IMG/VR virus record: IMGVR_UViG_3300037400_002553
Span: 10,204 to 74,203 of that record
Source: a virus
Lineage: Duplodnaviria; Caudoviricetes
Direction: 5' to 3' (one strand)
DNA length: 64,000 bases
The position numbers were made by a program, and so were the translations under genes. The notes beneath the pieces were generated by a model. It saw only the letters and a program-made list of their open reading frames with translations, was not told the origin of the DNA and ran no database searches. Each line of letters opens with the position of its first letter. Positions within the stretch are counted from its first letter, which is position 1. Shown here piece after piece: positions 15,007 through 33,556 of the stretch.

Positions 15007-15495
15007 ATGAGTGATTTACTTCAAAGAATGCCGTTACAGTTCGAACCTCTAAGAAAAAATAGATGGGTGGTTCGTTTTCCAAGTGACTTAGGTATATCAG
15101 AATGGATGCTTTCATCTGCATCTCGTCCAAAATTAACACAGAGCTCAACAGAAATACAATTCCTTAATACTTCTACTTATGTAGTTGGAAGATACACATG
15201 GGATAGTTTGCAATTTACCTTCAGAGACCCAATCGCGCCATCAGCATCTCAAGCATTAATGGAGTGGATTCGTCTTTGCTCTGAGTCAGTAACTGGACGT
15301 CAAGGCTATGCTGCTGGATATAAGAGAGATATTGAGTTGGAAATGCTTGATCCTACAGGCGTTTGTGTTCAGAAATGGATTTTAAAAAATGCCTGGATTT
15401 CGAATTGTGATTTTGGGTCACTTTCTTACTCAGATGATGCCATCGCTGACATTACTGCTACAATAGTTCTAGATTATGCGATACTCGCGTACTAA
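15007..15495 (+). CDS. Tail tube protein (T4 gp19-like)
   Basis: FEPLRKNRW...SASRPK...GRYTWDSLQFTFRDPI..SASQALMEW...GYKRDIELEMLDPTGVCVQKWILKNAW; 162 aa. Confidence 0.9.
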   Translation: MSDLLQRMPLQFEPLRKNRWVVRFPSDLGISEWMLSSASRPKLTQSSTEIQFLNTSTYVVGRYTWDSLQFTFRDPIAPSASQALMEWIRLCSESVTGRQGYAAGYKRDIELEMLDPTGVCVQKWILKNAWISNCDFGSLSYSDDAIADITATIVLDYAILAY

Positions 15496-15531
15496 CCTGA
15501 TTATCAAGCAGTTACATTATTATAACATTAT

Positions 15532-15560
15532 AAAAGCCGATAAAAATTCGGCTTTTATTT
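15532..15560 (+). terminator. Rho-independent terminator
   Basis: AAAAGCCGA-TAAAAAT-TCGGCTTTT followed by a T run, after the tube gene. Confidence 0.75.
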
Positions 15561-15643
15561 TTTTATATGTATACATATTTTTTTTGTATATTTATAGTAC
15601 TTTATCTATGGGAAAAAGTATTTATAGTAAAAAAAGAAGAAAT

Positions 15644-17527
15644 ATGTATAGTTTTAATGAATTTATAGAAAGGGCAAAAAAAGTACATGGTGACAAATAC
15701 AATTATTCAAAAGTTAATATAGTAGATAATAATGAAAAAGTTTGTATTATATGCCCAAAACATGGTGAATTTTGGCAAACGCCAAAAAGTCATATTGTTA
15801 GAAAATATGGTTGTCCTAAATGTGGCCGTGAAATATGTGCAAATAAAACAAAGAAAACTAATAATGAAATTATTAATGATTTTTTTTCTGTACATGGCAA
15901 AAAATATGACTACAGTAAAGTAGAATATACTAATGCATATACCAAAGTATGTATTATATGTCCAAAGCATGGTGAATTTTGGCAAACACCGCATGATCAT
16001 TTAAAAGGTGTTGGCTGTCCAAAATGTGGCATGGAAAAGCAAAAAGAAATTCTTTCAGATACTTATCCTATTTTTTTAGAAAAAGCAAAAAAAGTACATG
16101 GGAATAAGTATGATTACTCAAAAGTAGATTATATAAACCAAAATACTAAAATTTGTATTATATGCCCAAAGCATGGTGAATTTTGGCAAACACCAAACAA
16201 CCATCTTCGTGGGGAGGGATGTAGAATATGTGGCATAGAGTCAACTAAATATTATCGAAGTTTAAAACAAGATGATTTTATAAAAAGATCAAATAAAAAA
16301 TTTAATAATTTCTATGATTATTCAAAAACAGATTTAAATCATAGAGATGAAAATGGAAAAATAATTATTACTTGCCCACTACACGGTGATTTTCTAGCAA
16401 ACCCGTCTTGGCATCTATCTGGGGTTGGATGTCCAAAATGCGGAAAATCTGAAAAATATACTACTGAAGAATTCATAGAAAAGGCAATAAATAAACATAA
16501 AAACAAATATACATATGAAAAAGTTGAATATGTAAACTGTCAAACTAAAGTACCTATTACATGTCCAAAACATGGTATTTTTTATCAAGCACCAAGTGAA
16601 CATTTATACGGTAAAGGTTGTCCAAAATGTGGAAACCAAATATCAAAAGCAGAAGATGAAATATATAATTTTTGTTGTGAACAAATAGGTGAAGAAAATG
16701 TTCAGCAGAGAAATAGACTTATTATCCACCCGTATGAATTAGACATTTACTTACGTTCATTAGGATATGCAATTGAATATAATGGGTTAAGATGGCATTC
16801 AGAAAAATTCGGAAAGGATAGATATTACCATCTAAATAAATTAAATGCTTGTAAAGAAAGGGGTATTAAACTAATCCAGATATTCGAGGATGAATATGTA
16901 AATAAACGAGATATTGTGTATAATAAGTTAAAACATATAATGAAATTTGATCAAAAATTACCTAGAATACCTGGCAGAAAATGTAAAGTAACGGAAATTT
17001 CTATTAACGAAGCAAAAGATTTTCTAAACAAATACCATATTCAAGGTTATGTTGGTTCTAAAGTTTATTTAGGTGCTTTTTATGATAAAGAATTAGTTGC
17101 TGTAATGACGTTTAAAACATTAAATAGAAATCCTCTAAATTGGGAATTAACGAGATTCGCAAGTAACTATAATTACATTTGCCAAGGTGTCGGAGGAAAA
17201 TTATTCACTCACTTTATAAAGAATTATAATCCAGAAGAAATTAAATCTTTTGCTGATAGGAGATGGACTATCAACGAAGAAAATAACATATACACAAAAT
17301 TAGGTTTTGAATTTGACTCTTATACCAATCCAGATTATCATTACTATAGAGAAGAAGACGGTCCAATTAGACAACATAAATTTGCTTTTAGAAAAAATAG
17401 ACTAAACAAGAAGTATGGCTTACCATTATCCATGACAGAAGAAGAGATGACTGAAAATTTAGGCTATACAAAAATATACGATTGCGGACTTATAAAATAT
17501 ACATGGAACAAAAAAAGAGAGGTTTAA
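15644..17527 (+). mobile_element. Free-standing homing-endonuclease-like gene (five Zn-ribbon repeats, PD-(D/E)xK domain, Hef-like C-terminus)
   Basis: Five CPxHGxFxxxPxxHxxxxGCxxC-type units, then YELDIY...AIEYNGLRWHS, then FLNKYHIQG...WELTRFA...ADRRW. The start is more likely ATG 15644, after the TATTTATA motif, than 15476. Confidence 0.75.
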
Positions 17528-17557: not shown

Positions 17558-20500
17558 TTAAATATCGCTGAAGGATACGCCTTGAGGAGTGACCATAAAC
17601 TCAATCTCGATATATTCGAGGGTTGGAGTAGGTTTAACCCATAGTTTACATTGGATTTCGTGAGCATCCATCATTTCAGGAGTTTGTTCTACATCCAATC
17701 TGTAATCTGTAATACCTCTATCTCTCTTGATTTGAGCAAGGATTGGGTTAACAATGTCCTCGAATTCTGCTTTTAGAGTTGTATCATTAGGCTCGAAGAG
17801 TAATACTCTTGTAGACTCAATGATAAGTTTTCTCATGTAAAGCATCAATCTCACTGTGTTAACTCTGTTCATTGGAGTGTCACCAGTGTACATTGTTTTA
17901 TTACCCCAAACCTTAACACCATCTTGTGAGAATGTCTTTAATGGGTTGATACGACCATCGTAAACATTATCCTCATCCTCAAGTTTAGCAAAGAAGTGCA
18001 TTCTAGTGCAATCAACTTTACCTCTCTCAATACCTGCAGGTGCATACCATGGGAATTTCTTGTTATCAACGTCAGCCATATTTCTCAATACGTCCTTAGT
18101 TGCAGGAAGATTAATAAAGATATTATTCTCACTATCGAAGAATTTAACCCAAGGATAGTATGTACATGCATAATATGTATCGATACCTACATCTTCAAGG
18201 TTTTCAGCAGCATCTGCAGATGAGTACATCTCGTCAATTGCGTCTGAAGCGCCCCAAGGCTTATCAGGAGTATCAACTACATATAATGTATCTTGACGTT
18301 TTTCCTCAATCATGTCGAGTGCATCTTCAACAAGTAATGTGTTGTTTACGTAATCGATGCCTGGAGTAGCAAACAAGTTGATTATATACTTCTCTGGAAT
18401 CTCAAATTGGTTATAGCCAGCTAAGAAAGCGTAATAGTCAGATGTGATACAGTTTCCTTCAAGTGCTAGGCTTGTTCCATCTTGGATTTTAGAGAATGTT
18501 TGTCCGTATCCGTTTTTAATTGTACCCTTATATTTATTTGCTTTAAATTCGTCTGTATTTGTACGCGCGTTACGATAAATATCCCATCCATCGAAACCAC
18601 CATAGAAGCACATTGTGAACTTACGCAATGCTTTATCAGCATAGATTGTATCTTCCATATCTTGTTCACTACCAATTACTGGTGCACTACCTCCTACAGG
18701 TGTATTATTTACAGATACACAATCCCATGTAATTGATGAAGTATTTAAGTCTCCGTCAATGGTAATTGTAATTCCGCTTAATTCTTGTTTTATCTCATCT
18801 GATAGTGTAGAATCAAGGTGGAATGGGTGTGTATATCCGTGAGTAAACTCATCCGTGTACGCATTTTTGCCTTTATAAGAAAGCATGTCGGTATCTATAC
18901 CAGTTAAATCTGACAAACCGAAGTATTGACGTTTTGCCTTGATATCATCATCAAGAATAGTGTTATATTTGAATGAAGGGGCGATTAATTGACTAGTACC
19001 CTCTTTTTTGTCTGAATAATCACGTACAGGGTAGCCTAAGAAACCGCATGGAACACAATTTTGTGTCATATCATTTTCAATAACCTCTACCATGATAAAT
19101 TTAGATTTCAATTCATATGCACCATCTAATGTACCAATTTGTAGTCCAATATATTTTGGATCACCAGGAACCATAGTAAGATTCTTAAATGACTCAAGAA
19201 TTGTTACATTACCGTCAGAATCACCGAAGTCACGAACATATACATCAAATCTTCCATCATCTGGGCGAATATTAGCAATAGAAATCTTTACTTCAGTATT
19301 AGATTCTGTACCGTCAGAAATAGTGTGGAATCTGAAAAGTTTCTTAACTTGTAAGTTCTTTCCATCACCCTTTAACTCTGAAACAACCCAAGGAGTTGAT
19401 GCACAACGGAATTGATCATGGTAATCACTCATATCATTTAATGGCACAAGAATATCTTTATCATTTTCATCCTTGTCTAAACAAACAAATGCATCATATT
19501 CCAATACTTTAACCGCTTTAACTGTATCATTGAGCGTTCCAGCACTTATACTTTCAACTGTAATTCCACTTCCGCTTTCGTCTTTTAATTCAACATATAT
19601 ATATTTTTTTACACCGTTAGTAGGATCTATAAATGATTTAACAGTATAAATACTACCTACCGTCATTGCGCTAGTTTCAGAAGTAATAGTATTAGCACTA
19701 TTTGTTATATGGAATACAAATCCGTTACCAGTATCGCCACTAAATTCTTCTCCATTTTCTGCACAAATAAATGTTTGACCAAGTTGTTTTCTTGTTAAAC
19801 TTGTCTCAGGAATAGTAACGAAGTCTTTAACTGGATCCGCAACAGCAGAAATTACCAACTCGTTAACTTTTTTAAGTTCTCTAGTTGTTCCACTTGTTCC
19901 AGTAACAGTTATTCCGCCAATTTCAGAAACTTTTTGTCTGGTAATCAAGTCATCCAACATTACATCATATAATTCCTCAACGAAAATTGCGGATGTTCCC
20001 TCACTTGCTTTAGAACCAAGGACATTATAGATATAATCCTTAGTACCAGCGTTTAATGAAACTGGATAACGACCAACCTCAACATATTCTCCCTTTTCTT
20101 GATCGAATTTATGTGCAACCAATGTAAATTGGCCATAGTTAATCGCATTAATTGGATAAGTTTCAGTGCTTGCAGTAGTTGCTGTTACGGAGCCACAATT
20201 AACCAAAACAGATACGTTAGTGTAAGGTTCAATAGTTACTTTATCACATGCAAATTGCAATGTATCATATTTAGAAATTGGGTTACACTCAGTACCAACA
20301 TTTGCATACTTTTTGTAAACACCTCTTGAACGTAATACTGCAATCACATGTGTTTCTGTTTGGGCAGAGTCCGTTGCAGTGATTAAGAATGCAGGGCCTG
20401 CATTATAGCCGCTAAGTCCTAAAACACGGCAAACATAAAGACGATCTGATGCTGACAAATATGATTTAGCAATGTAAGGTAATTGATATTTAGGATATTG

Positions 20501-20710
20501 AGAATCCTTAAATTTCTCTGCGCTAGTACCACCAAAATAGTCTCTAAATTGGTTATAATCTTGAACTAAAATTGGTTCAAAAGCAGGACCTTTAAGCGTC
20601 TCACCAGCAATACCCAATGTAGTTACACCTAATGTTTTCGCAGCATAAGAAAGATCTGTGAATTTAGTATAAACTCCAGGACTTGAATGTGTTCCTCTAA
20701 TTTTTCCCAT
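17558..20710 (-). CDS. Tail sheath protein (T4 gp18-like)
   Basis: SPGVY...GETLKGPAFEP N-terminus; C-terminal NLFATPGIDY...WYAPAGIERG...RINPL...VWGNKT...RVNTVRL...LFEPND. Confidence 0.95.
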   Translation of the reverse strand: MGKIRGTHSSPGVYTKFTDLSYAAKTLGVTTLGIAGETLKGPAFEPILVQDYNQFRDYFGGTSAEKFKDSQYPKYQLPYIAKSYLSASDRLYVCRVLGLSGYNAGPAFLITATDSAQTETHVIAVLRSRGVYKKYANVGTECNPISKYDTLQFACDKVTIEPYTNVSVLVNCGSVTATTASTETYPINAINYGQFTLVAHKFDQEKGEYVEVGRYPVSLNAGTKDYIYNVLGSKASEGTSAIFVEELYDVMLDDLITRQKVSEIGGITVTGTSGTTRELKKVNELVISAVADPVKDFVTIPETSLTRKQLGQTFICAENGEEFSGDTGNGFVFHITNSANTITSETSAMTVGSIYTVKSFIDPTNGVKKYIYVELKDESGSGITVESISAGTLNDTVKAVKVLEYDAFVCLDKDENDKDILVPLNDMSDYHDQFRCASTPWVVSELKGDGKNLQVKKLFRFHTISDGTESNTEVKISIANIRPDDGRFDVYVRDFGDSDGNVTILESFKNLTMVPGDPKYIGLQIGTLDGAYELKSKFIMVEVIENDMTQNCVPCGFLGYPVRDYSDKKEGTSQLIAPSFKYNTILDDDIKAKRQYFGLSDLTGIDTDMLSYKGKNAYTDEFTHGYTHPFHLDSTLSDEIKQELSGITITIDGDLNTSSITWDCVSVNNTPVGGSAPVIGSEQDMEDTIYADKALRKFTMCFYGGFDGWDIYRNARTNTDEFKANKYKGTIKNGYGQTFSKIQDGTSLALEGNCITSDYYAFLAGYNQFEIPEKYIINLFATPGIDYVNNTLLVEDALDMIEEKRQDTLYVVDTPDKPWGASDAIDEMYSSADAAENLEDVGIDTYYACTYYPWVKFFDSENNIFINLPATKDVLRNMADVDNKKFPWYAPAGIERGKVDCTRMHFFAKLEDEDNVYDGRINPLKTFSQDGVKVWGNKTMYTGDTPMNRVNTVRLMLYMRKLIIESTRVLLFEPNDTTLKAEFEDIVNPILAQIKRDRGITDYRLDVEQTPEMMDAHEIQCKLWVKPTPTLEYIEIEFMVTPQGVSFSDI

Positions 20711-22572: not shown

Positions 22573-23532
22573 TTATTTGTATTTTACAACTTTCCCAGAA
22601 GTTTTATTATAGGCGTACATATGGAAAACTGCGTTATCTACATAAGACAGACCACCATAGGCTCTAACATTATAATCTTGATTACTATCTGAAAGTAATG
22701 AAATATCACCAAATGTCAAACTAGTTGGTTCTTGTTTATTTAGGCCCAACACGTTGTGCAACGTTCCAGGATAACTCTCCATAGCATATGCCTCATATTT
22801 TAAATTACTATAAGATCCGTTATAAAAAAATAAAGGATAATACCATGCTATATAATTATTATTGAGAACTGGTGAAAAAGTACTTGAATTATAGTTGTTT
22901 GTTGTACTTGTTCTTTTTAAATAAGAAACTTGTTGCAATTGTCCGCTTGTACTTGACCATATAAGTCCCCTAAAATACGTCCCATCATAGTGATACCACG
23001 AAACCCATTTATCTAAACTAGATTCAACTCCCGAGATACTATCAGTGCCAAGATTATAATCCCAAATTGCTGTACGGGCTTTGATGTATTTACTACAAAA
23101 ATGTAAATTTGAAGAGGCATCTCTATAAGCAAACCAACAATCAACACCTGGCCAATTATATGAATTAGTTCTTGTTTTTAGTAAACTAATAGAATTACCA
23201 TCAAAGTATAATATATGTAATGGGACACTATAATTACTATTACCTCCATATAAACATATATAGTTATCTTTAACAACGCCGTTATGATATTTTGAAGAAA
23301 GTTCAATAGAATCCAAATCATTCCCATTTAAATCGAAAACATGCAGTGTATGTACAGTCGAACTCCATTGGTCGAATACTAATACATATACATACGGGCT
23401 GTTATCAAATTTATACAAGAATGATTTTTCACCAGACAACTGATTGATTGCATTAACAACTGTTTCAAATGGATCACCAGACATATGTCCGCCGTCCTGT
23501 TGCATTATCAATGTTCTTCTAATATCACTCAT
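22573..23532 (-). CDS. Putative tail-tip/receptor-binding protein with N-terminal MSDIRRTLIM peptide
   Basis: Y/S/N-rich beta-type sequence; ATG 23532 overlaps the upstream stop. Confidence 0.55.
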   Translation of the reverse strand: MSDIRRTLIMQQDGGHMSGDPFETVVNAINQLSGEKSFLYKFDNSPYVYVLVFDQWSSTVHTLHVFDLNGNDLDSIELSSKYHNGVVKDNYICLYGGNSNYSVPLHILYFDGNSISLLKTRTNSYNWPGVDCWFAYRDASSNLHFCSKYIKARTAIWDYNLGTDSISGVESSLDKWVSWYHYDGTYFRGLIWSSTSGQLQQVSYLKRTSTTNNYNSSTFSPVLNNNYIAWYYPLFFYNGSYSNLKYEAYAMESYPGTLHNVLGLNKQEPTSLTFGDISLLSDSNQDYNVRAYGGLSYVDNAVFHMYAYNKTSGKVVKYK

Positions 23533-23998
23533 TATCCCATTCACCTATAACACCTAAATTATTTTCTATGCTAACTAAATATTTTTTATTTGTTTGCGTA
23601 TTCAAATCCTTCATCCATACTACTGTATCAGGTACATATAACGCTGTCGCAACGTTACCGCTTGTAAATTGAAACATATATTCATTAACGATATTTGAAT
23701 CACCAGAAACAAAAGTAATATTCAAAACCTCCCTCTCGCCGAACATATACATTTTATTTGGTTCAATACTAAAAGTATTTCCACTATCAGATGTTTTATC
23801 AATTACAGGTATGCTTCCTCCTCCAGCAGATACTAATTCCTCAATTTTAGAAGAGGAATATGTTGTCTCATTTGAAACATTATTATCATCAATTGCTGCG
23901 ACGATAGTTTCTTGTGGGATAAAATATTCGGAATCCGCTCCATCATAATTAGAAAATTCTCCGTTATAGTAATTTTTATAATCTCTCATTTTATTCAA
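23525..23998 (-). CDS. Tail-fibre adaptor-like small protein
   Basis: TYSSSKIEEL motif plus IEPNKMYMF...VNEYMFQFTSG...VVW...KYLVSIENNLG domain, paralogous to the C-terminus of 29568..31775. Confidence 0.55.
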   Translation of the reverse strand: MNKMRDYKNYYNGEFSNYDGADSEYFIPQETIVAAIDDNNVSNETTYSSSKIEELVSAGGGSIPVIDKTSDSGNTFSIEPNKMYMFGEREVLNITFVSGDSNIVNEYMFQFTSGNVATALYVPDTVVWMKDLNTQTNKKYLVSIENNLGVIGEWDNE

Positions 23999-24128
23999 AA
24001 ATGTTTATACACTATTATTTACTTATAAATAGTTTTTATCATCGAAATAATATAATTTTTGTATATTTATTTTGTATTTATATACAGAAAGCGAAAAATA
24101 ACACAAAGTAACAAATAAGATATAAATT

Positions 24129-25283
24129 ATGCAAAAAGAAAGTAAAGTACAATTATCAAAAATGATGTCTTTAATGGAACGTATGGATAAACATTACACC
24201 AATGATCAAGCAAAGGTTTTATTAGAGAACGATTTGAGAAGCAAAAATCTTTTAAAAGAAGAAATTGAAGAGGCTGATAGGGGTACAGCCGTTCAAATTG
24301 ACAACAACACTTACTCATTAAGTGATCCAGAAGAATTAGTTAGAGTGTTATCCAAGAAAGATATGACGCCCCAAAAAGGCTGGTTTGTAACCATGGGTTA
24401 TGTATGCGGCGTTACGGAATTAGGCGATAAACAAATTCAAAAAGGTGTCGACTCATTTGAACCAGGTTCCCCAGAAAGAGTAAAATCATTAGGTTTCGAT
24501 AGATTAAATAACATTATTGATAATCCAACGATTATTGATAAGGGTATAAATAAAGGCAAAATTAAAAACCCATATATGCCAGATAGTAATTCAAACTTTA
24601 TTGTTAAAGTTGAAAAAATACAACTAATGTATGGTAGAAATGAAGAATATGGCAAGCGTAAACAAGATGTCGAACACGATTTAGAGGCATACCAACACGA
24701 GAATCCAGAAGATGTACAACATTATATCGATTATGTAGCAAATAGGCCAAAGAATCCATATCAAATAACAAGTTTCCCACAACAAGCATATGGTATGAAG
24801 AGCGACAATAGAACAAGAGTTCCAAATACCAACATATTCCAGTATCCAGACGGAAGTTATGAAATGGACTTCAATACTCCTCTTAAAGTTTATAAACGTC
24901 TAAAGGTTGCTTATTTCTTAATTAATGACGAAAATAATATTGAAGAAATAACCCCAGAAGAAGTAAAAGCATACGTTGACTTATTTGGTGTTAAAGCAAA
25001 TAAAAAAGTTGCTAACGAGGATGAAATTGTCGCAAGAGTTGAGAAATTTATAAACGATACAAAGACAAAACGCCATAATGGGGACTTATATAATCACTAC
25101 AAACTAAATAGCATCTTCTTACTTAACTTTGCAACAGAAGATGGAAGACAAAAATTACAATTCTACAATCCAAACGCTGTTGTTAGATTTGTTAAGGGAA
25201 AGGAATTGAAGAGCGGAATAACTCCTTCAAGATATACAGCATCTGGACTGCTTAAACCTCATCTTGAAAAAATGAAACAATAA
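24129..25283 (+). CDS. Hypothetical protein (N-terminal LME/LLE/LKE motifs)
   Basis: 384-aa ORF followed by a terminator. Confidence 0.65.
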   Translation: MQKESKVQLSKMMSLMERMDKHYTNDQAKVLLENDLRSKNLLKEEIEEADRGTAVQIDNNTYSLSDPEELVRVLSKKDMTPQKGWFVTMGYVCGVTELGDKQIQKGVDSFEPGSPERVKSLGFDRLNNIIDNPTIIDKGINKGKIKNPYMPDSNSNFIVKVEKIQLMYGRNEEYGKRKQDVEHDLEAYQHENPEDVQHYIDYVANRPKNPYQITSFPQQAYGMKSDNRTRVPNTNIFQYPDGSYEMDFNTPLKVYKRLKVAYFLINDENNIEEITPEEVKAYVDLFGVKANKKVANEDEIVARVEKFINDTKTKRHNGDLYNHYKLNSIFLLNFATEDGRQKLQFYNPNAVVRFVKGKELKSGITPSRYTASGLLKPHLEKMKQ

Positions 25284-25300
25284 TTTTAGTTCATAATTTT

Positions 25301-25331
25301 TAGGGAGATAAGAAATTATCTCCTATTTTTT
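25301..25331 (+). terminator. Rho-independent terminator
   Basis: TAGGGAGATAA-GAAA-TTATCTCCTA followed by TTTTTT. Confidence 0.65.
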
Positions 25332-25363
25332 GTATATTTACAAAGAATAATACAAAACTTACA

Positions 25364-27367
25364 ATGGCAAACTTAAAAAAGACAACACAGGCACTCGAAA
25401 TTCTCAAGAATTATGAAGGAGAAAATCCGTATATCCTAATGTTAAAGAGGGACATGTTTGTTTATGAGGATCCAGACGCAGTTGGAGACTTTCAGATAAA
25501 CTATATCCTTAAAAATCACGATTATAAGCCTAAAACAATAAACAGATATACAAAAATACCAGAATGGTACGGCCTAGATAGACAAGAAAAGTGGAATACC
25601 GAATTTGTACCTCAAAAATTACTTGTTTGTTCAATTTTTGGTGAAACGGATATTTCTTATAGTTGTTATGTACAGTACAGACAGTCCGTACCACCTGTTA
25701 TGTGTTTTTTACCAAAGAAAGCAATTATAAATAACCTATTCGTTGAGGATTATAATAAAATAGAAGTTGATTTTGATAGGTACGATAGATTATCAAATGC
25801 AAAATCGGAAGGTAGAAAGTTAAAACCACACCAAAAAGAGGCTGTTAAATTCTTATTGTCAAGAAAAAAATGTATGTTATGTGACGAGCAGGGATTAGGA
25901 AAAACAACATCCTTATCAGTAGCCGCTATTGAAGGTAATTTCGACTCCGTATTGATTATCTGCCCAGCATCATTAAAGACAAACTGGAAAACCGAATTAT
26001 CATATTACGTTGATGAACGATATATTACCGTAGTTGATGGATTTAGTGACAAAAACAAAAAAGAATTAGAGAAGTTCCTTGGGTATGGTATAGGAAAATC
26101 TGGAAAAAAGAGAGAAGAACTATTAGAAGATGTAAAACAATATGGCAAATGGCAAGATAATCGTTTTGTCATCGTTAACTATGACATATTAGACGATTTT
26201 TATACACTATCAAGTGTCAGAAGTGAGTCGTCCGTTAAGGAATTAGTTGAAAACAATCCAATGCTGAAATATATTTACAATAAAAAGGCCTGTATTATAA
26301 TGGATGAGGTCCATATTCTAACGGATAGTTCATCTAAACGCTATAAAATCATTAATAATTTGATCAAAAGGGGTAAACCAGAAAGTATATATCTTGCAAC
26401 AGGAACTCCAGTGACAAATAACCCATTGAATTTATACTATTTACTAGCACTTATTGAGAATGAGATAACGGCCGACTATAATTATTACATTAATACCTAT
26501 TGCGAAGCAAAGAAATTCCCAGCAAAAGGAGAAAGAGAGCGTTGTGAGAGAGAATTTTTAAGAATGAAAGGTAAATCATCGTGGTATGATTTAACTAACG
26601 CAGAAAAAGAAGGGCTAAAGGACTATATTTCAAAGCACGCAAAGATGATTACCACAGCAACTGGTTCTGATAACCTTAATGAATTGCAAGAAAAGATATC
26701 TCATATCTATTTAAGAAGAACAAAAGATATACTCGACCTACCTCCGAAGTATCTACATGAAGTATTTTATGACTTAACGGTTGATCAAAAGAAAGAGTAT
26801 AACAGATTGTGGGAAGAATATGAGGCAGAACAAAAACAACTCGATCAGGATAAGGAATTAAATAAGGAGTTGCTTGAGGGAAGTATCTATCGAAGTTATC
26901 TTGCAAACATAATGGTTCCAAAAACAATAGAATTGGCTAACTCTATTATATCAAAAGGTAATAAAGTCGTAATTGCATGCTGTTTTGACGAGGAATTATA
27001 CTCATTACGTGATTATTATAAAGATAAATGTGTTATTTATAACGGGAAGATGGGACTCAAGGATAAAGACGCCGCAAAAGATAAATTTCAGAATGATGAT
27101 AATTGTATGGTATTCATCGGAAATGTCATTAGTGCTGGAAAAGGCATCACACTGATTAAATCTCACGACCTTATATTCAACTCATTTAACTATTCAAATG
27201 CTGATTGTAAGCAAGTCGAGGATAGAATACATAGAATTGGGCAAACACATGACTGTGATATCTATTATCAGTTCTTTAGAGAGACACAGTGTGAGAATGT
27301 TTGGAATATCGTATTGAAAAAACAAAGAATAACTGAAGCATTAATAAAAAAAGAAGAGGAGAAATAA
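25364..27367 (+). CDS. SNF2-family (HARP/SMARCAL1-like) helicase
   Basis: LKPHQ, LCDEQGLGKT (Walker A), LIICPASLKTNW, IMDEVH, LATGTPVTN, QVEDRIHRIGQ. Confidence 0.9.
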   Translation: MANLKKTTQALEILKNYEGENPYILMLKRDMFVYEDPDAVGDFQINYILKNHDYKPKTINRYTKIPEWYGLDRQEKWNTEFVPQKLLVCSIFGETDISYSCYVQYRQSVPPVMCFLPKKAIINNLFVEDYNKIEVDFDRYDRLSNAKSEGRKLKPHQKEAVKFLLSRKKCMLCDEQGLGKTTSLSVAAIEGNFDSVLIICPASLKTNWKTELSYYVDERYITVVDGFSDKNKKELEKFLGYGIGKSGKKREELLEDVKQYGKWQDNRFVIVNYDILDDFYTLSSVRSESSVKELVENNPMLKYIYNKKACIIMDEVHILTDSSSKRYKIINNLIKRGKPESIYLATGTPVTNNPLNLYYLLALIENEITADYNYYINTYCEAKKFPAKGERERCEREFLRMKGKSSWYDLTNAEKEGLKDYISKHAKMITTATGSDNLNELQEKISHIYLRRTKDILDLPPKYLHEVFYDLTVDQKKEYNRLWEEYEAEQKQLDQDKELNKELLEGSIYRSYLANIMVPKTIELANSIISKGNKVVIACCFDEELYSLRDYYKDKCVIYNGKMGLKDKDAAKDKFQNDDNCMVFIGNVISAGKGITLIKSHDLIFNSFNYSNADCKQVEDRIHRIGQTHDCDIYYQFFRETQCENVWNIVLKKQRITEALIKKEEEK

Positions 27368-27368
27368 T

Positions 27369-27611
27369 ATGGAAAAAAGAATGAATTGGAAAGAAAAAGG
27401 AATGTGGGTAATAAGAGACTTTGATGGAATCTTATATATCTGTAACAGAAAGCCATATAAAAACTTTCACGACGAATTTGATTTTGTATGGAGTTGCGAG
27501 GGCGATTTTATTAGATTAGATTCGAAAAACTTCGATGATTTAAAGCCACAAGACGATCCAGTTGAGGTTGATGTCGTTGATTTATGGAAAAACAGAAAAA
27601 TAACAGACTAA
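27369..27611 (+). CDS. Small hypothetical protein
   Basis: 80-aa ORF (WVIRDFDG.LY...KP) directly after the helicase. Confidence 0.6.
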   Translation: MEKRMNWKEKGMWVIRDFDGILYICNRKPYKNFHDEFDFVWSCEGDFIRLDSKNFDDLKPQDDPVEVDVVDLWKNRKITD

Positions 27612-27632
27612 AATAAGCCTGCTATTTTATTT

Positions 27633-27701
27633 TTAATTAATATCTGGTCCTGGAGTTATTGTTCCAGTAGATAATGCATTTGAAAAAAAATCTGTTATGA
27701 A
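27633..27701 (-). pseudogene. Orphan C-terminal remnant of a tail-tip gene
   Basis: FITDFFSNALSTGTITPGPDIN-stop, with an in-frame TAG upstream and no start codon. Confidence 0.4.
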
Positions 27702-27772
27702 CTATATATACTTATACAAGTTGCGAAGAGCAGATAAGCGAGAAGAATATGTAAACTATTCGGGTTCATTTT

Positions 27773-28486
27773 TTATAAATTATTACTCCATATTGTTTGT
27801 CCACTATTAGTGTCTTTTATGTACATTGCGGACGTTTCATTTATATCGTAGTTGCTTGTAAAATATGCCACAGTAGAGTTTACATTTACTGTACGACTAT
27901 TTGGGAAAGACGAATTCCAATAAGACACATAATTTTTATCTATGTCATAATAATATATAGGATTGCGTAATAAGAATGTTATCCTTGATGAGGGTAAAGT
28001 ATTAGGAACGATAATTGAACATCCAATAGGGCTGGCACCAAAATTACGCGTATAATATCTAAAAATATAATTTCCCAAACTGATTTCCTTTTCACCCAAA
28101 ATCACATATGCATCCTCTATTTGTTTATCTGGGAGATACCCCAATACTACATTTTCAACTTGGCTTATGTTTGTACATATAGATACATATTTACAAGGAG
28201 AAACATTTCTGAAATAGGAATATCCAGTAAAATATTCTACATATTGCCAAGTTTCTTGTTGTCTGTATAACTTACAATTATCGAAGTCTAATATATTTGT
28301 ATCTCCTAAATATACTTTATGACTAAGATTTGAATCTAATTGTATATTCACAATACTTGCATAGTTAGCATCTTCTTCGAGGATAATATTTCCATTACTT
28401 CTGACTATCTTATAACCATACAGCCAGGCATTTCCTATGCTTTGCATCTGCATCATCAGCCTTCTTCTCTCTAATAACGTACTCAT
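27773..28486 (-). CDS. Putative tail-tip protein with N-terminal MSTLLERRRLMM peptide
   Basis: 237 aa, Y/N/S-rich; ATGA overlap with the upstream ORF; AAAGGAGG upstream. Confidence 0.6.
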   Translation of the reverse strand: MSTLLERRRLMMQMQSIGNAWLYGYKIVRSNGNIILEEDANYASIVNIQLDSNLSHKVYLGDTNILDFDNCKLYRQQETWQYVEYFTGYSYFRNVSPCKYVSICTNISQVENVVLGYLPDKQIEDAYVILGEKEISLGNYIFRYYTRNFGASPIGCSIIVPNTLPSSRITFLLRNPIYYYDIDKNYVSYWNSSFPNSRTVNVNSTVAYFTSNYDINETSAMYIKDTNSGQTIWSNNL

Positions 28487-29206
28487 GCAGCAATCCTCCT
28501 TTCTCTAGAATCACTACATAAAATATTGATTATTAAGAGTTTACCCCCCCCACACATTGGCGGATTTGAAGCTATAATGTTGCCTATTTGGAATATTCCA
28601 ACGCCTGGATAAAATGCATTGTTAATATTGTCAATTACACCACAAATTCCATTTTTCAAATATGGGTAAAGGTCTAACAATGTATTACCATCTTCTATTA
28701 TTTTTAAATTTAAATGGTCTGCTTCCTTGTGCACTTTTAAATATTTCAAGTTGATTATCATAAACAAAAATATCATTTTCATTACCACTTCTTTTTCTCT
28801 GTCTATATGGCATTTCAACCCCATTTTTTAATATTTTAAGTTCACTATCAGTAACATAAATTTTGTAATTTGCACTTTCTTCCTGGGAAAAATTAGATAT
28901 TACTTGAATTGTTGGAGAAGTTGTTTTTCCAACTCTCCCTTGAATAATATTACCTCCATAAACCCCACTCTTTAATATTACACAACCACAAAATTTATTT
29001 TCCCATACATCAAGGTCTTTACGATTGCTTATACCAAAACCAACAATATTTGGAACATTTTCAAATTCAAAAATAAATCTAGTTTTTTTATTATATATGT
29101 ATGATACTGGGATATAAGATGATGTATTATAATTCATTATCCAATCAATGTATCCACTTTCTCTACCCATTATCACATTTCTCCTATTTAACAATTCCTT
29201 ACTCAT
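28483..29206 (-). pseudogene. Frameshifted tail-tip (beta-sandwich-like) gene, MSKELLNRRNVIMG...
   Basis: ORF 28685..29206 ends RPFKFKNNRRW*, while the +1 frame continues LKIIEDGNTLLDLYPYLKNGICGVIDNINNAFY, which reads as the natural C-terminus. Confidence 0.55.
28544..28551 (-). repeat. G8 homopolymer immediately before TAA
   Basis: Minus strand TGT-GGGGGGGG-TAAACTC; the only long G/C run noticed in the window. Confidence 0.85.
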
Positions 29207-29540
29207 CTCTATGTGGTTGATTTTTCGCCCAAGTTATTGCTTCTTCTACAAAGTTATAATATTCCTGAAATGCTTCTGGTTCTACATCTCTCTTCCTTTG
29301 TACTTCAAATTCTTGGTTAATAGAATATCTCTCTCTTATTTTACCTTCTACTAATTCTTCAACAGTAGGTAAATATGGTTCTGGTTCTGGAGCCACATAT
29401 TCTTCCCATCCTTCATTCATAAAAACCTCTAAGGTAGGGTTAAATATCATAAAACCATCTATCGTAATAGATGTTAATACCTTACCGTTCTTCACTGTAA
29501 ATGTTCTTATAACTCCGTCTTTTATAAATGTCTTACTCAT
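29199..29540 (-). CDS. Tail-fibre assembly chaperone-like protein
   Basis: IFNPT.E...EGWEEY...PEP...LVEGKIRERYSINQEF...AFQEYYNFVEE; lies directly after the fibre gene. Confidence 0.5.
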   Translation of the reverse strand: MSKTFIKDGVIRTFTVKNGKVLTSITIDGFMIFNPTLEVFMNEGWEEYVAPEPEPYLPTVEELVEGKIRERYSINQEFEVQRKRDVEPEAFQEYYNFVEEAITWAKNQPHRDE

Positions 29541-29567
29541 AATATATAGTAGTATTTTAAATATTTT

Positions 29568-31775
29568 TTATGATTGAGAAGGTAGTGTTATTTCAGCAAA
29601 TACACCAATATGTTCCATAATTGACACCTCGAATATTTTCCCACTTGTTCCACCGTCAAATACTGGTACTATTCCAGCATTCCAATTAATAGGATAAGAC
29701 ATGTCGAAGTCAATTGTTAGTGTATCACCAGGTGCTATATTGATTAAGAAGTGGTATTCTTGTACGTTTGTACTTCCAGAATCATAGATAAATGATAATG
29801 TCACATTATCAACTCCTTCTTCTAATACGTATAGTGTGTTTGCACTAATTAATGTCATTCCACTAGTAATACCAGAATCAATTATCACTATTGGTGTTTC
29901 ACCTAAATTATTGATTACTTCTTGTACTGTGCTTGCAGATGTTATATTTGAGCCATTGTAATCACCTATACCGTTAACATATAAGTCTCCGTTGTTCATC
30001 ACTTCAATGGCATTCTTTCTATCATAAATAGAGGTACCTATACCGATTGAATCAATAGTTAATCCACTATGTGTTTCATTATATATACCACTTGCGCGTT
30101 CATAATTATTGCTTGTCTTTGTCCCGTATCCCTCTGAGTGGGAAGCGATTCCAATGGCGGTAGTTGCCTGTCCTTCAGCATGTGAAGATGCACTTACAGC
30201 AACATTACTCCTTGTTACGACTCCACAACCACCACCATATGCTGTATCAGTTTTAAGTGTGTCTGGTGGATAAACATTTACAATCTCACTATAGAATAAT
30301 GGGTTAATTGTAAAAACATATGTATATTTTGTAACTCCACTAACTTCTTCTTGTGTTTTTATTGTTTCTGATATTGGTAACACTCTCCTAAAATCAGCCA
30401 CATCAGTTAAATAAATAACCCTGATTTCATTTATATCAACATCCGTTATAGTTGTAACTGTTACCGTGTGTGCCGTATCATCATGAGAATAATTTTCCCA
30501 ATCATAAAACTGTATAGAATTATAATTTCCGCCCTCTGAGTGTGAAAAATTACCAATCGCAATATTTTCGCTTCCCTCTGCATGTGAACTATTACCATAC
30601 GCACAAGTATTATGTCCTTCACCATGCGCTGCTTGATTTACTGCAACGCCTTGTTGCCCTTCTGCCTGGGAGTTTTGCCCTAATGCCTGAGAACCAGACC
30701 CAGTGGCAGTAGATGCCGTTCCCATTGCCTTAGTATTACAACCTCTTGCATTTGCCCAAAAATTAGATGCTTCAGTACCCTCTCCTTCGGCATGAGAATA
30801 ATGCCCAGAAGCAATTGTATTATATCCTTCGGCGTGTGAATAAGAGCCAGAAGCAGTTGTCCCGTTTCCTTCTGCGTGAGAATCTCCCCCAGATGCCGTT
30901 GTCCCGTTTCCTTCAGCATGAGAGGCAGTATTAGAAGCGGTCGTACCATTTCCTTCAGCGTGTGAATAAGAGCCAGAAGCAGTTGTTCTATTACCTTCTG
31001 CATGTGCCCCGAAATGTCCAGATGCCGTTGTAAGATTTCCCTCTGAGTGTGAATATTGCCCAGATGCCTTTGTTTGATATCCTTCAGAATGGGCTGCAGA
31101 GAGTAAAGCACCAGTTTCCTCGACTAAATCTACCGTCGTAAAAGTAGTTGTCGCAGTAATTGGTATTTCAGTATCGAACCTGACATCATAACCAGAAGTA
31201 CTAATATTAATTACATTGGCATAAGCAGTAAAACTACTTAATAATTTTTTGAATCTAACAGTGTTTCCTAAAGCCAATTTACCAATCATTGATTCGGAGA
31301 ATATAGCGATGTCTCTATTCTCTATATTAACGGTACATTTGGGCAAACTCACTACATTTCTGTACCCGCCAACTCCTTCTGCGTGTGCAGAAGCGCCATC
31401 GGCCAATGTTCCGCTACCCTCAGCATGAGAAGAAGCACCATTGGCCACAGTATCAGTTCCTTCTGCGTGGGCAGAAGATGCACTAGCAACCGTATTACGA
31501 CCCTCGGCAAATGAATTAGCCCCAGTTGCGGTATTATTTCCAACAACAGCAAAACTTGTTGCGCCAGTATCAAAGATATAACCCTCAGCCGATATAGTAT
31601 TAGACGAATCTATTGAAATATTTGTTCCAGGTATCAACGTGTCCTGTTTATTCCCTATTTCAGAATTAATCTTTTCAGAACTCCATGTTGAACCTGTGTC
31701 TATTACACCATCATTAATTAAATAAGAGACCTTAACACGTCTTACATAATTGTCATATTGATTTACATTACTCAT
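29568..31775 (-). CDS. Tail fibre with YadA/Hep_Hag-like head repeats
   Basis: Many 14-aa S/AHAEGxxTxASG repeats; C-terminal adaptor-like domain. Confidence 0.8.
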   Translation of the reverse strand: MSNVNQYDNYVRRVKVSYLINDGVIDTGSTWSSEKINSEIGNKQDTLIPGTNISIDSSNTISAEGYIFDTGATSFAVVGNNTATGANSFAEGRNTVASASSAHAEGTDTVANGASSHAEGSGTLADGASAHAEGVGGYRNVVSLPKCTVNIENRDIAIFSESMIGKLALGNTVRFKKLLSSFTAYANVINISTSGYDVRFDTEIPITATTTFTTVDLVEETGALLSAAHSEGYQTKASGQYSHSEGNLTTASGHFGAHAEGNRTTASGSYSHAEGNGTTASNTASHAEGNGTTASGGDSHAEGNGTTASGSYSHAEGYNTIASGHYSHAEGEGTEASNFWANARGCNTKAMGTASTATGSGSQALGQNSQAEGQQGVAVNQAAHGEGHNTCAYGNSSHAEGSENIAIGNFSHSEGGNYNSIQFYDWENYSHDDTAHTVTVTTITDVDINEIRVIYLTDVADFRRVLPISETIKTQEEVSGVTKYTYVFTINPLFYSEIVNVYPPDTLKTDTAYGGGCGVVTRSNVAVSASSHAEGQATTAIGIASHSEGYGTKTSNNYERASGIYNETHSGLTIDSIGIGTSIYDRKNAIEVMNNGDLYVNGIGDYNGSNITSASTVQEVINNLGETPIVIIDSGITSGMTLISANTLYVLEEGVDNVTLSFIYDSGSTNVQEYHFLINIAPGDTLTIDFDMSYPINWNAGIVPVFDGGTSGKIFEVSIMEHIGVFAEITLPSQS

Positions 31776-31819: not shown

Positions 31820-33556
31820 TTATTCTATCACAGCGTCTTCTACAGTCCAGTTATCTGGGATACCGTTCTTGTCTCTTGTCCAACTTGTTGCATCTTGGTG
31901 TTTAACAAATGTGCCACTACTTGCCACACCATTCACCCAATTAATAGTACTATTATTTTGATTTATGCCATTAACAGCAAGACATTTAATATAATTTAAA
32001 CTACTACAACCATTGAACATATCACCATAACAACTACTTGCCAATGTAGTTGCTGGTAATTCTGGCGCGGTTGTTAATCTACTACAACTAGAGAACATAG
32101 CAGCATAACACCATTCTGCTAATGTAGTAGCGGGCAACTCAGGTACATCTGTTAAACTTGTGCAACCTTTGAACATACTAGTATAACAATAATTAGCCAA
32201 TGTTGTTGCTGGTAACTCTGGAGCCGTCGTTAAACTTGTGCAACCTTGGAACATATAGTTATAGCACGCTTCAGACAATTCAGTTGCTGGTAATACTATC
32301 CTTTTTTCTTCTGTCATAAATATAGGCGTTGCGGCAAATAATGAATCAAAAATACCATCTTGCCCATTTGCAAACACTGTTAAATCATATAATTTTGAAA
32401 AATCATCCATTCCAAGAAGCGACATAATATTACCATATACTAAACATGGTTTATCAATTCTAAATGAATTTGTTGCATATGCGTCATTATATCCAGAGAT
32501 ACCGTTATTTCTAAAACTATCCGATTTAAACCTTATTTTATCGCCTGAGTTTATTGTTATGATATCTGGCGTATCATCGTCTACGTCTTTAAATGTTATT
32601 TCTCCCCAAACGCCATTATTGATTGAATAATAAATTGTGGCATTGATAGGGTCAACATCCCAATCTGCACCTTCTGAGTATATAAATGTAATATTTGTGT
32701 CATCATTTAATGCTTCGAATGTTAAGTATTCTTTCCTCATATCCTTTGGTATCTCATGATTCTCAATTCCACTAATAAAATCAGCCGTTTTAAATACAAC
32801 CAATTCTCCATCATCGTTCATTGATATATCACATTCTGAGATTGGAAAATCTATATAACTATTTACACAAGTAGGTTTAAATATATTTGTATTACAATCT
32901 TTTCCTGTTACTCTAATTTTATTAATTGTTTGTTTACCCGTTTCAGAATTTACACAAGGTAAAATTTTGTTATTATATACGCCATTAACATAACCATTTA
33001 ATGAATAATCTTCTCCATTATTACCAAATGTATATTCGCCGTCTTTTTGTAATATATTTTTAAAATCAAAAGGCGCTTCGTTATTATAGTCATCTTTCAT
33101 GTAATATATTATGCCTTTACTGTTTTCAGTATCAGCGAACTCAAATCTCCTATCGCCATTATCGAGACTATATTTAATTTCCCATACATTGATATTGCAT
33201 TCATCAAAATACCCGTCACTATTACTGTTTAAACATACAAAGCCATTTTCATTTAAACTATTCGTTGTATTAGCAAACAAAATTAAGTCAAATGGATGCT
33301 CGGCAGAACTAATACTTTCATCCTCACTATATACCTTTGTTACATAGTCAGTCATCCTATATAACATACCAGGTTTTAATTTACCATTATCTCTTAAAGA
33401 AACCAATTCATTATATGTAACATTAGTCATTAAATCAGTTGTAATACCAGTTAATGCATCTGCCACATATTGTTTAATCCATTTCTTTGCATCCTCTATA
33501 TTGGTTTTTAAGCCATAATAGTTTAATATTTCATATGTTTTATCTGTATCTGCCAT
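31820..33556 (-). CDS. Tail-fibre-associated protein with C-terminal PELPATTLA (LRR-like) repeats
   Basis: Four CYxxMFxxC..L..xPELPATTLA-type units; N-terminal fibre-type motif LNYYGLK. Confidence 0.7.
   Translation of the reverse strand: MADTDKTYEILNYYGLKTNIEDAKKWIKQYVADALTGITTDLMTNVTYNELVSLRDNGKLKPGMLYRMTDYVTKVYSEDESISSAEHPFDLILFANTTNSLNENGFVCLNSNSDGYFDECNINVWEIKYSLDNGDRRFEFADTENSKGIIYYMKDDYNNEAPFDFKNILQKDGEYTFGNNGEDYSLNGYVNGVYNNKILPCVNSETGKQTINKIRVTGKDCNTNIFKPTCVNSYIDFPISECDISMNDDGELVVFKTADFISGIENHEIPKDMRKEYLTFEALNDDTNITFIYSEGADWDVDPINATIYYSINNGVWGEITFKDVDDDTPDIITINSGDKIRFKSDSFRNNGISGYNDAYATNSFRIDKPCLVYGNIMSLLGMDDFSKLYDLTVFANGQDGIFDSLFAATPIFMTEEKRIVLPATELSEACYNYMFQGCTSLTTAPELPATTLANYCYTSMFKGCTSLTDVPELPATTLAEWCYAAMFSSCSRLTTAPELPATTLASSCYGDMFNGCSSLNYIKCLAVNGINQNNSTINWVNGVASSGTFVKHQDATSWTRDKNGIPDNWTVEDAVIE

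What the first reader, a model, noticed from the sequence alone, without database searches (positions are those of the whole stretch)
22573..31775. Candidate plug-and-play tail-tip system: adaptor domain plus RRxxxM-tagged small proteins, in two cassettes
Seen: 23525..23998 and 29568..31775 share an N-terminal T(Y/W)SS.KI motif and a C-terminal domain (I.(P/A)N.(M/L)Y...V(N/Q)EY.F...W...K(Y/I)(L/F).VSI...(L/I)G). Each is followed by genes with otherwise unrelated Y/N/S-rich bodies but similar N-termini: MSDIRRTLIM, MSKELLNRRNVIM and MSTLLERRRLMM. Inference: the RR..M peptide docks interchangeable receptor-binding domains onto the adaptor, giving a swappable host-range module. I know of no functional description of this pairing.
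Basis: partly seen in the sequence, partly recalled or inferred. Interest (0 to 1): 0.72.

Follow-up and report, generated by a model that had tools for sequence, protein, structure and literature searches.

The report
Socket-and-plug joint for phage tail tips
This gut-type phage, like well over a thousand uncultured relatives, ends its tail fibres in a conserved acidic domain, and the next gene always starts with an arginine-rich peptide (consensus MSxFRRRLMM) on an interchangeable host-binding protein, which looks like an undescribed plug-and-socket way of swapping host range.

Summary
The window has exactly two copies of a ~95-residue C-terminal beta-sandwich: one on the 157-aa protein and a diverged one on the 735-aa fibre. 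It has exactly three genes that start with an RR peptide.

The domain is widespread: 1,852 clusters at 50% identity. It sits at the extreme C-terminus in 139 of 149 sampled proteins. It has no Pfam model and no relative in the PDB by sequence.

In 58 of 64 distinct loci, the translationally coupled downstream gene starts with MSxFRRRLM(M). The background rate is about 2 in 930 ORFs. In the reverse test, 29 of 37 DNA-pattern hits have the domain directly upstream. Arg, Ser and Leu codons vary, so selection acts on the peptide.

The bodies behind the peptide are unrelated: beta-propeller, ConA-like lectin, BspA LRR. A near-identical relative phage (flanking genes 95-97% identical) carries a completely different body, and the break lies just after the peptide codons.

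The predicted fold resembles the XD1 domain of T4 gp9/gp10 and CBA120 TSP4. The domain is net acidic.

Physical docking is inferred, not shown; a single-chain AF2 test was inconclusive.

The closest known systems are the branching-domain plus docking-peptide RBP systems of Klebsiella, G7C and CBA120 phages. I rate this a new variant of a known kind.

The parts
23525..23998 (-). Mini-fibre or adaptor gene 1 (157 aa from TTG; probable ATG start at 23989)
   Evidence: ORF list. phmmer finds 1,852 clusters of relatives.
23528..23815 (-). Socket domain 1 (res 62-157): 8-strand beta-sandwich, canonical NEYMFQF..SG..AT..P..W...NK.Y.VSI.NNLGVIGE
   Evidence: AF2 pLDDT 94-98. Profile E 4e-40. VIA Z 6.6-7.3 to TSP4 XD1, KP1 baseplate protein and Pa223 spike.
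23825..23863 (-). Neck helix carrying the TYSSSKIEELV motif
   Evidence: AF2 helix at res 49-58. phrog_1162 tail fibre, E 5e-4.
22573..23532 (-). RR protein 1 (319 aa): MSDIRRTLIM peptide followed by a beta-propeller-like body
   Evidence: Its ATG overlaps the adaptor stop by 8 nt. The ESM Atlas model resembles lactonase/YncE propellers, TM 0.58. Weak DUF5711 hit.
23503..23532 (-). Plug peptide 1 (MSDIRRTLIM)
   Evidence: Regex scan. Homology to relative L130 ends here.
29568..31775 (-). Long fibre (735 aa) with YadA-head-like SHAEG repeats
   Evidence: PF05658, 30.6 bits, above cut-off. phrog_25468, E 1e-46.
29589..29891 (-). Socket domain 2 (res 629-729), a diverged copy
   Evidence: hmmsearch E 7.6e-7 and hhalign probability 83%. 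Second-best hit in the contig scan.
29199..29540 (-). 113-aa companion protein (N-terminal module ..NP..E....GWEEY.P), possible fibre chaperone
   Evidence: 44-69% identical to the small proteins that follow RR genes in L124, L129 and L130. A relative in L017 carries DUF4376.
28685..29206 (-). RR protein 2, frame A (173 aa, MSKELLNRRNVIM)
   Evidence: Res 29-103 match positions 15-89 of the HMM for the EYIESTGTQYIDT-type RR family.
28483..28824 (-). RR protein 2, frame B, used after a +1 shift near 28700; its TGA overlaps the next ATG
   Evidence: Res 34-73 match HMM positions 134-174, E 8e-6. Sequence read directly.
27773..28486 (-). RR protein 3 (237 aa, MSTLLERRRLMM), an orphan body
   Evidence: The only hit in 5.8 billion proteins is itself. 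ATGA overlap and AAAGGAGG ribosome-binding site.

Best explanation
The region encodes two copies of a two-piece, serially joined tail fibre.

The proximal piece is either a 157-aa mini-fibre or the 735-aa YadA-like fibre. Each ends in an acidic, XD1-like beta-sandwich, which I call the socket. The distal pieces are separately encoded receptor-binding proteins. Each starts with a short basic peptide, which I call the plug; its family consensus is MSxFRRRLMM.

I infer that the plug binds the free distal face of the socket, mainly through its three arginines plus a hydrophobic L-M-M patch. That would hang the binding body (beta-propeller, jelly-roll or lectin, LRR) on the fibre tip.

Socket and plug are conserved while the bodies are not. 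Recombination just behind the plug codons therefore exchanges host specificity without disturbing tail assembly. A small companion protein (113 aa here) probably acts as a fibre chaperone.

Shown: both motifs exist, they are obligately adjacent and translationally coupled, selection acts on the peptide, the bodies are exchanged, and the fold class and charge are as stated. Inferred: physical docking, presence in the virion, and the receptor-binding role.
For: 1. The domain is a real, large family: 1,852 clusters at E<=1e-3 and 500 at E<=1e-10. It is C-terminal in 139 of 149 sampled proteins.

2. Forward test: 58 of 64 distinct socket loci have an RR-peptide gene starting within -22 to +45 nt of the stop, most of them within -8 to +1. 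The background is 2 non-family matches among about 930 other ORFs. An independent metagenome sample gave the same result, 22 of 30 pairs plus 2 near-variants.

3. Reverse test: a DNA pattern for MSxFRRRLMM gave 37 loci, and 29 have the socket within 600 nt upstream at E 1e-10 to 1e-42. Most of the rest are chance hits in alternative frames, a second gene in a tandem pair, or a truncated flank.

4. Arg codons vary (AGA, AGG, CGN), Ser varies (AGY, TCY) and Leu varies (TTR, CTN), so the constraint is on the peptide.

5. Bodies are exchanged behind identical plugs. L111 versus L113, L084 and L110 have sockets 95-97% identical but unrelated bodies. The close relative L130 has flanking genes 95-97% identical at the protein level and 87% at the DNA level. 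Its homology to the window stops about 9 codons into the RR gene and resumes at the RR stop.

6. The bodies look like binding domains: Laminin_G_3, BspA LRR_5, and a beta-propeller.

7. The socket fold has the same structural neighbours as TSP4 XD1 and T4 gp9 (PMC8825819). Its mean net charge is -6.4, which complements RRR.

8. Some family members carry a covalently fused extra C-terminal domain in place of a plug partner. This places the attachment site at the distal end.

9. Cultured Enterocloster phages have a diverged pair.
Against: There is no direct evidence of binding. AF2 of a natural in-frame read-through construct (L021: socket, 5-residue linker, plug) left the plug at pLDDT about 51. 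That test was monomeric, used a short linker and had no alignment for the peptide.

PMC8825819 states that XD1 domains in gp9, gp10 and TSP4 do not bind trimeric partners, although in those proteins both faces are occupied by the chain.

The fold matches are only Z 6-7, which is within the range of common arrangements.

Some plug genes are tiny (33-34 or 71 aa) and cannot be receptor binders. The window has three plug genes for two sockets. In cassette 2 a companion gene separates the socket from the plugs. A beta-propeller body need not be trimeric.
Confidence: 0.65

Rival explanations
1. The RR proteins are Tfa-like assembly chaperones or transient caps. They bind the fibre's C-terminal domain to fold it. 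They are not the receptor binders and may not stay on the virion.
For: The gene order (fibre, then a coupled downstream gene) is the same as for Mu, P2 and lambda Tfa and for the Alteromonas V22 chaperone caps (PMC10579305, PMC7289586). Some RR genes are only 33-71 aa.
Against: The cassette already has a separate small companion protein related to DUF4376 chaperone-type proteins. RR bodies are large, very diverse lectin, LRR and propeller domains that are swapped between close relatives. That is the behaviour of specificity determinants, not of a chaperone matched to a conserved domain.
Confidence: 0.1
2. Socket and plug are conserved and adjacent because they form a recombination and translational-coupling junction of a mobile fibre cassette. 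The RR proteins attach to another tail component, such as the baseplate, and not to the upstream protein.
For: Homology between relatives breaks exactly behind the plug codons. The genes overlap by 1-8 nt. AF2 gave no confident intramolecular docking.
Against: Synonymous codon turnover shows selection on the amino acids, not on the DNA. The pair travels together in myoviruses and siphoviruses, in Bacteroidota and Bacillota contexts with otherwise unrelated tails, so no common third partner is evident. The charges are complementary.
Confidence: 0.12
3. The RR N-terminus is an export or membrane signal (Tat-like or signal-peptide-like) rather than a docking element.
For: There are consecutive arginines near the N-terminus. 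One abundant Phocaeicola-prophage variant reads RRRLLILAAM, which is mildly hydrophobic.
Against: The canonical peptides are followed by polar or charged residues (for example SVKKQNEY, QQDGGH) with no hydrophobic region or cleavage site, as the sequences show directly. The proteins sit in tail modules of lytic and temperate phages.
Confidence: 0.02

Closest known systems
Anchor-branch RBP systems of Klebsiella podophages KP32, K11 and KP34: branching domain of RBP1 plus conserved docking peptide of RBP2 (PMC6872550; shown experimentally in PMC13352976)
   Same: A short, conserved N-terminal peptide on a separately encoded, exchangeable RBP is paired with a conserved beta-sandwich domain on the preceding RBP. 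The genes are adjacent. The system is used for modular host-range change.
   Different: The Klebsiella branching domain is T4gp10 D2/D3-like and lies internally, upstream of RBP1's own depolymerase, so the complex is branched. Here the domain is terminal, giving a serial joint. Its fold neighbours are XD1-type, it has no sequence similarity to the Klebsiella domain, and the peptide is strongly basic. The Klebsiella peptides lack positive charge (PMC6872550). The hosts here are gut Bacteroidota and Bacillota.
CBA120 TSP1-4 complex, G7C gp66/gp63.1 and T4 gp10 with gp11/gp12 (PMC8825819)
   Same: XD-type beta-sandwich modules organise multi-RBP complexes. An acidic XD surface complements a basic partner N-terminus. 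The socket's best solved-structure neighbours include TSP4 res 79-180 (XD1), Z 6.6-6.8.
   Different: In those phages XD2 and XD3 do the binding, not XD1. The partners use folded N-terminal domains rather than a ~10-residue peptide. There is no detectable sequence homology.
K1E, K1-5 and SP6 adapter protein with 7- and 11-residue tailspike peptides (as summarised in PMC6872550)
   Same: Very short N-terminal peptides are sufficient to attach alternative tailspikes.
   Different: The adapter is a dedicated protein with a T4gp10-like domain in podoviruses. The peptide sequences are unrelated.
Tail-fibre chaperones and caps: DUF4376 in Alteromonas V22 and A5 (PMC7289586, PMC10579305)
   Same: A small protein encoded right after the fibre or RBP. 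The window's 113-aa protein shares an N-terminal module with companion proteins, one of which has DUF4376.
   Different: This applies to the companion protein, not to the RR proteins. The 113-aa protein itself has no Pfam hit.

Membership tests
Anchor-branch RBP system (branching domain plus conserved docking peptide) | Secondary RBPs share a short conserved N-terminal peptide while their bodies differ | tested here: met
   MSxFRRRLM(M) in 58 of 64 distinct loci. Bodies are unrelated.
Anchor-branch RBP system (branching domain plus conserved docking peptide) | The partner domain is T4gp10 D2/D3 (XD2/XD3)-like | tested here: inconclusive
   Fold searches give XD1-type neighbours (TSP4 79-180, gp9, CpaA, StcE), Z 6-7.3. 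XD2 and XD3 were not listed, which does not exclude them.
Anchor-branch RBP system (branching domain plus conserved docking peptide) | The domain lies upstream of the primary RBP's own receptor-binding module, so the complex branches | tested here: not met
   The domain ends within 8 residues of the C-terminus in 139 of 149 proteins, including both window copies.
Anchor-branch RBP system (branching domain plus conserved docking peptide) | Physical interaction between the peptide and the domain | tested here: inconclusive
   In the single-chain read-through AF2 model the domain has pLDDT about 95 and the peptide about 51. No multimer tool was available.
XD1-like fold (T4 gp9 middle domain, gp10 D1, CBA120 TSP4 XD1) | Beta-sandwich that superposes over most of the domain, with the same set of structural neighbours | tested here: inconclusive
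   84-87 of about 95 residues align, rmsd 2.7-3.3, Z 6.6-7.3. The neighbour set (TSP4 XD1, 6O38, 4DNY, 1QEX) matches the table in PMC8825819. Z is below 8, so this may be only a common arrangement.
Tfa/DUF4376 tail-fibre chaperones (considered for the RR proteins) | Match to the chaperone family models | tested here: not met
   No such Pfam or PHROG hit for any window or locus RR protein. DUF4376 was found only in a companion protein.
Tat or Sec signal peptide | Basic region followed by a hydrophobic region of at least ~12 residues and a cleavage motif | tested here: not met
   Read directly from the sequences: polar or charged residues follow LMM.
YadA-head repeat proteins (the 735-aa fibre shaft) | PF05658 above the gathering score | tested here: met
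   30.6 bits against a cut-off of 25.

The most novel reading that the evidence does not exclude
The socket domain and the MSxFRRRLMM plug form one cross-phylum docking standard, shared by myoviruses, siphoviruses and prophages of gut Bacteroidota and Bacillota. Any plug-tagged binding protein could then be mounted on any socket-ended fibre. The plug would also serve as a sequence tag that identifies the host-specificity genes of uncultured gut phages.
Probability: 0.5. Interest if true: 0.72.

Novelty: new variant of a known kind. Interest (0 to 1): 0.62.

Why it matters
Receptor-binding proteins of uncultured gut phages are mostly unannotated 'hypothetical proteins'. A 10-residue tag plus a ~95-residue domain, both detectable by simple profiles, would mark the fibre tip and the specificity gene in well over a thousand phage lineages.

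It would also explain how these phages exchange host range, by recombination right behind the plug. And it would give a defined junction for testing or re-targeting phages of gut commensals.

The domain has no Pfam family and no solved structure, so it is a clear target for both.

Tried and rejected
1. AF2 of a natural read-through fusion (L021, TAA read as Gly) was meant to see the plug fold back on the socket. The peptide was not placed confidently, so the test is inconclusive. A first alignment that included the plug peptides was discarded because MAFFT misaligned them onto the domain.

2. No natural socket-plug-body fusions were found among 150 representatives. Proteins with an internal domain lack the plug.

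3. Homologue searches for the 237-aa RR protein and for the 735-aa C-terminus returned only the proteins themselves. tblastn of the 323-aa, the 173-aa and a canonical RR protein against cultured phages found nothing.

4. A profile search of the PDB with the socket alignment found nothing meaningful.

5. A full-text search for RRRLM-type strings found no phage paper. The tentaclin paper (PMC10743442) describes a different architecture.

6. My first narrow HMM missed the 735-aa copy. A broader profile recovered it.

8. A conserved programmed frameshift that would fuse socket and RR protein was rejected, because the overlap phases differ between loci (-8, -4, -1, +1, +12).
Full report
**Context.** The window is 64 kb of a single 74.2-kb contig with about 31% G+C. 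It belongs to a contractile-tailed phage: the 1050-aa gene at 17558-20710 is a tail sheath.

The finding covers a minus-strand run of tail genes. A three-gene plus-strand island at 24129-27611 interrupts it (a 384-aa unknown, an SNF2-type helicase matching phrog_62, and an 80-aa ORF).

In transcription order, cassette 2 is:
- the 735-aa fibre (29568-31775);
- a 113-aa protein (29199-29540);
- RR gene 2 (28483-29206, frameshifted);
- RR gene 3 (27773-28486).

Cassette 1 is the 157-aa protein (23525-23998) followed by RR gene 1 (22573-23532). After it come 180-aa and 348-aa proteins and the sheath.

The 157-aa protein and the last ~145 residues of the 735-aa fibre align at 31% identity, E 0.009. 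That is marginal on its own. A profile built from 213 family members matches residues 629-729 of the fibre at E 7.6e-7, and hhalign gives 83% probability over 93 columns. In a six-frame scan of the whole contig these two proteins are the only hits (E 4e-40 and 7e-4; the next is 0.42).

All three RR genes are translationally coupled to the gene before them. Two overlap it by 8 nt and one has an ATGA overlap.

In the 157-aa protein it begins the helix predicted just before the domain.

**The domain is a large, unannotated family.** phmmer of the 157-aa protein against 1.84 billion representatives found 1,852 clusters at E<=1e-3 and 500 at E<=1e-10.

In 139 of 149 sampled proteins (72-1052 aa long) the domain ends within 8 residues of the C-terminus. 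The ten exceptions either repeat it in tandem or carry a further 75-141-aa (511 aa in one protein) C-terminal extension fused directly to it, with no RR peptide.

Neither window copy has a Pfam match for this domain. A profile search of all PDB sequences found nothing.

AF2 with a 34-sequence alignment gives an eight-strand beta-sandwich at pLDDT 94-98. Its best solved neighbours (VIA Z 7.3-6.0, 80-87 residues aligned) are:
- the C-terminal domain of the Pa223 capsid spike;
- a Klebsiella phage KP1 baseplate protein;
- CBA120 TSP4 residues 79-180;
- CpaA (6O38);
- StcE (4DNY).

Foldseek also lists T4 gp9 and gp10, weakly. PMC8825819 reports this same neighbour set for the TSP4 XD1 domain. I therefore read the fold as XD1-like, with the caveat that Z below 8 can be a common arrangement.

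In BFVD, 90 viral proteins match at E<=1e-3, and many of those with an annotation are tail fibres. The domain is acidic, with a mean net charge of -6.4 over 34 members.

**The pairing is the rule, in both directions.**

Forward test. An alignment-based scan of IMG/VR returned 80 loci. Combined with the genome-collection and cultured-phage loci, these gave 64 distinct pairs of socket tail and downstream N-terminus. In 58 of them the next gene starts within a few bases of the stop, most often at -8, -4, -1 or +1. That gene begins with the RR peptide, whose consensus is MSxFRRRLM(M).

Two of the five loci without a strict match (a sixth ran off its contig end) are the cultured Enterocloster phages, which read MSFLRREQM and MSLMHREQM.

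Among about 980 distinct ORFs of at least 100 aa in the same loci, only two outside this family match the regex.

Reverse test. A degenerate DNA pattern for MSxFRRRLMM found 37 loci in IMG/VR, and 29 have the domain within 600 nt upstream at E 1e-10 to 1e-42. The eight without it are:
- four matches that are not credible RR genes: three lie in alternative frames of large ORFs and one is a non-family peptide;
- one that is the second of two tandem RR genes;
- one with a single intervening gene;
- one with a truncated flank;
- and the last, a 34-aa micro-ORF of the kind described below.

An independent scan of metagenome contigs reproduced the rule.

Carriers include contigs binned to Bacteroidales, Bacilli, Erysipelotrichaceae, Eubacterium, Clostridia and Gastranaerophilales, and a Phocaeicola plebeius isolate genome. 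Siphoviruses of Enterocloster bolteae also carry the pair.

**Selection acts on the peptide, not on the DNA.** Across 42 distinct 30-nt versions, the Arg codons use AGA, AGG, CGA, CGC, CGG and CGT. Ser switches between AGY and TCY, and Leu between TTR and CTN.

**The bodies are interchangeable.** RR proteins range from about 150 to 640 aa. They carry Laminin_G_3 (ConA-like), BspA-type LRR or Lcl_C-like regions, or no known domain.

The window's RR1 body is beta-propeller-like in the ESM Atlas model (TM 0.58 to lactonase/YncE-type propellers).

RR2 is a frameshifted member of the common EYIESTGTQYIDT...FYxNxGxGxF family. Its two frames match the N- and C-terminal parts of that family's HMM in order.

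RR3 is an orphan.

Sockets that are 93-97% identical over their last 100 residues, followed by plugs that are identical or nearly so, sit in front of unrelated bodies. Examples are L111 versus L113, L084 and L110, and L022 versus L071.

The most telling case is L130, a close relative of this very phage. Its 180-aa and 348-aa genes are 96.7% and 94.5% identical to the window's. DNA identity is 87% from window position 22577 onwards, and the RR1 stop codon is at 22573-22575.

The socket plus the first ~9 RR codons align at 74% (window 23768-23507). Everything between is unrelated: a 239-aa body of a different kind in L130 against the 319-aa propeller here. The exchange unit therefore begins immediately behind the plug.

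In the other direction, the C-terminal two-thirds of the window's 578-aa LRR protein (31820-33556) recurs elsewhere as RR-tagged proteins. The same body can thus be mounted in different ways.

**A third cassette member.** The 113-aa protein is 44-69% identical to the small proteins that normally follow the RR genes (L124, L129, L130).

Longer relatives share its N-terminal module. One carries DUF4376, and two have sub-threshold CBM_5_12 matches. DUF4376 is the tail-fibre chaperone domain of Alteromonas phages (PMC7289586, PMC10579305).

This makes a chaperone role more likely for the companion protein than for the RR proteins.

**Mechanism.** The best-supported reading is a serial socket-and-plug joint. 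The acidic, XD1-like terminal domain of the proximal fibre receives the basic and hydrophobic N-terminal peptide of a separately encoded binding protein. Recombination behind the plug then swaps specificity.

The binding step itself is inferred. My one available test was AF2 of a natural in-frame read-through of L021 (socket, 5 residues, plug). The domain was modelled at pLDDT about 95 and the plug at about 51. The test is weak because it was monomeric, tightly tethered and had no alignment for the peptide.

Other points against the reading, or left open:
- PMC8825819 says XD1 modules of gp9, gp10 and TSP4 do not bind trimeric partners, although there both faces continue into the chain.
- Some loci have plug-only micro-ORFs.
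- The window has three plugs for two sockets.

**Comparison with known systems.** Conceptually this is the docking-peptide principle known from Klebsiella KP32, KP34 and K11, from G7C, from K1-5 and SP6, and from CBA120 (PMC6872550, PMC13352976, PMC8825819). It differs in several ways:
- the domain (XD1-type neighbours, no sequence similarity);
- the position (terminal, so serial rather than branched);
- the peptide (tri-arginine);
- the hosts (gut anaerobes).

I found no description of this pair. The scan's own notes hold analogous docking-peptide findings on other DNA, but none that share this sequence.

**Verdict.** I rate it a new variant of a known kind.

Noticed in passing
window 28483-29206 (-): RR gene 2 is split by a +1 frameshift at or near an A-run (about 28699-28712). 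A G8 tract lies at about 28545-28552 in the continuing frame. This could be an assembly error, a pseudogene or slippage.
   Followed up: partly
window 24129-27611 (+): A three-gene plus-strand island splits the minus-strand tail-fibre module into the two cassettes. It holds a 384-aa unknown, a 667-aa SNF2-type helicase and an 80-aa ORF.
   Followed up: no
window 31820-33556 (-): Residues ~260-575 of the 578-aa BspA-like LRR protein are 32-44% identical to RR-tagged proteins in other phages (L124, L153, L148). Here the same body carries a different 260-aa N-terminus instead of the plug.
   Followed up: partly
L087, L097, L101, L116, L119, L152, L155, L157: In one lineage the plug is a free-standing 34-aa micro-ORF (MSxFRRRLMMM... 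ending in a repeated WFRSEGWFRSE.W motif). In at least L087, L097, L101 and L119 a large gene, more than 1,200 aa where complete, follows it. It may be a separate adaptor peptide.
   Followed up: partly
L003-L005, L131-L136; L023-L074, L126: Other plug-only ORFs exist. A 33-aa ORF is coupled to a 677-aa gene. A 71-aa basic protein (RRRLLILAAM...) lies just before the amidase in an abundant Phocaeicola-type prophage group.
   Followed up: no
L129 (Ga0326514_10007697) 2817-4860: A relative carries two socket/RR cassettes in direct tandem (socket, RR 130 aa, companion, socket, then MVISDIRRRIL...). This resembles the window's two cassettes.
   Followed up: no
window 15476-17527 (+): A 683-aa HNH/homing-endonuclease-like gene with several repeated matches lies on the opposite strand just beside the sheath gene.
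   Followed up: no
P0084, P0150: Some proteins carry the socket domain two or three times in tandem, so the module can also stack within one chain.
   Followed up: no
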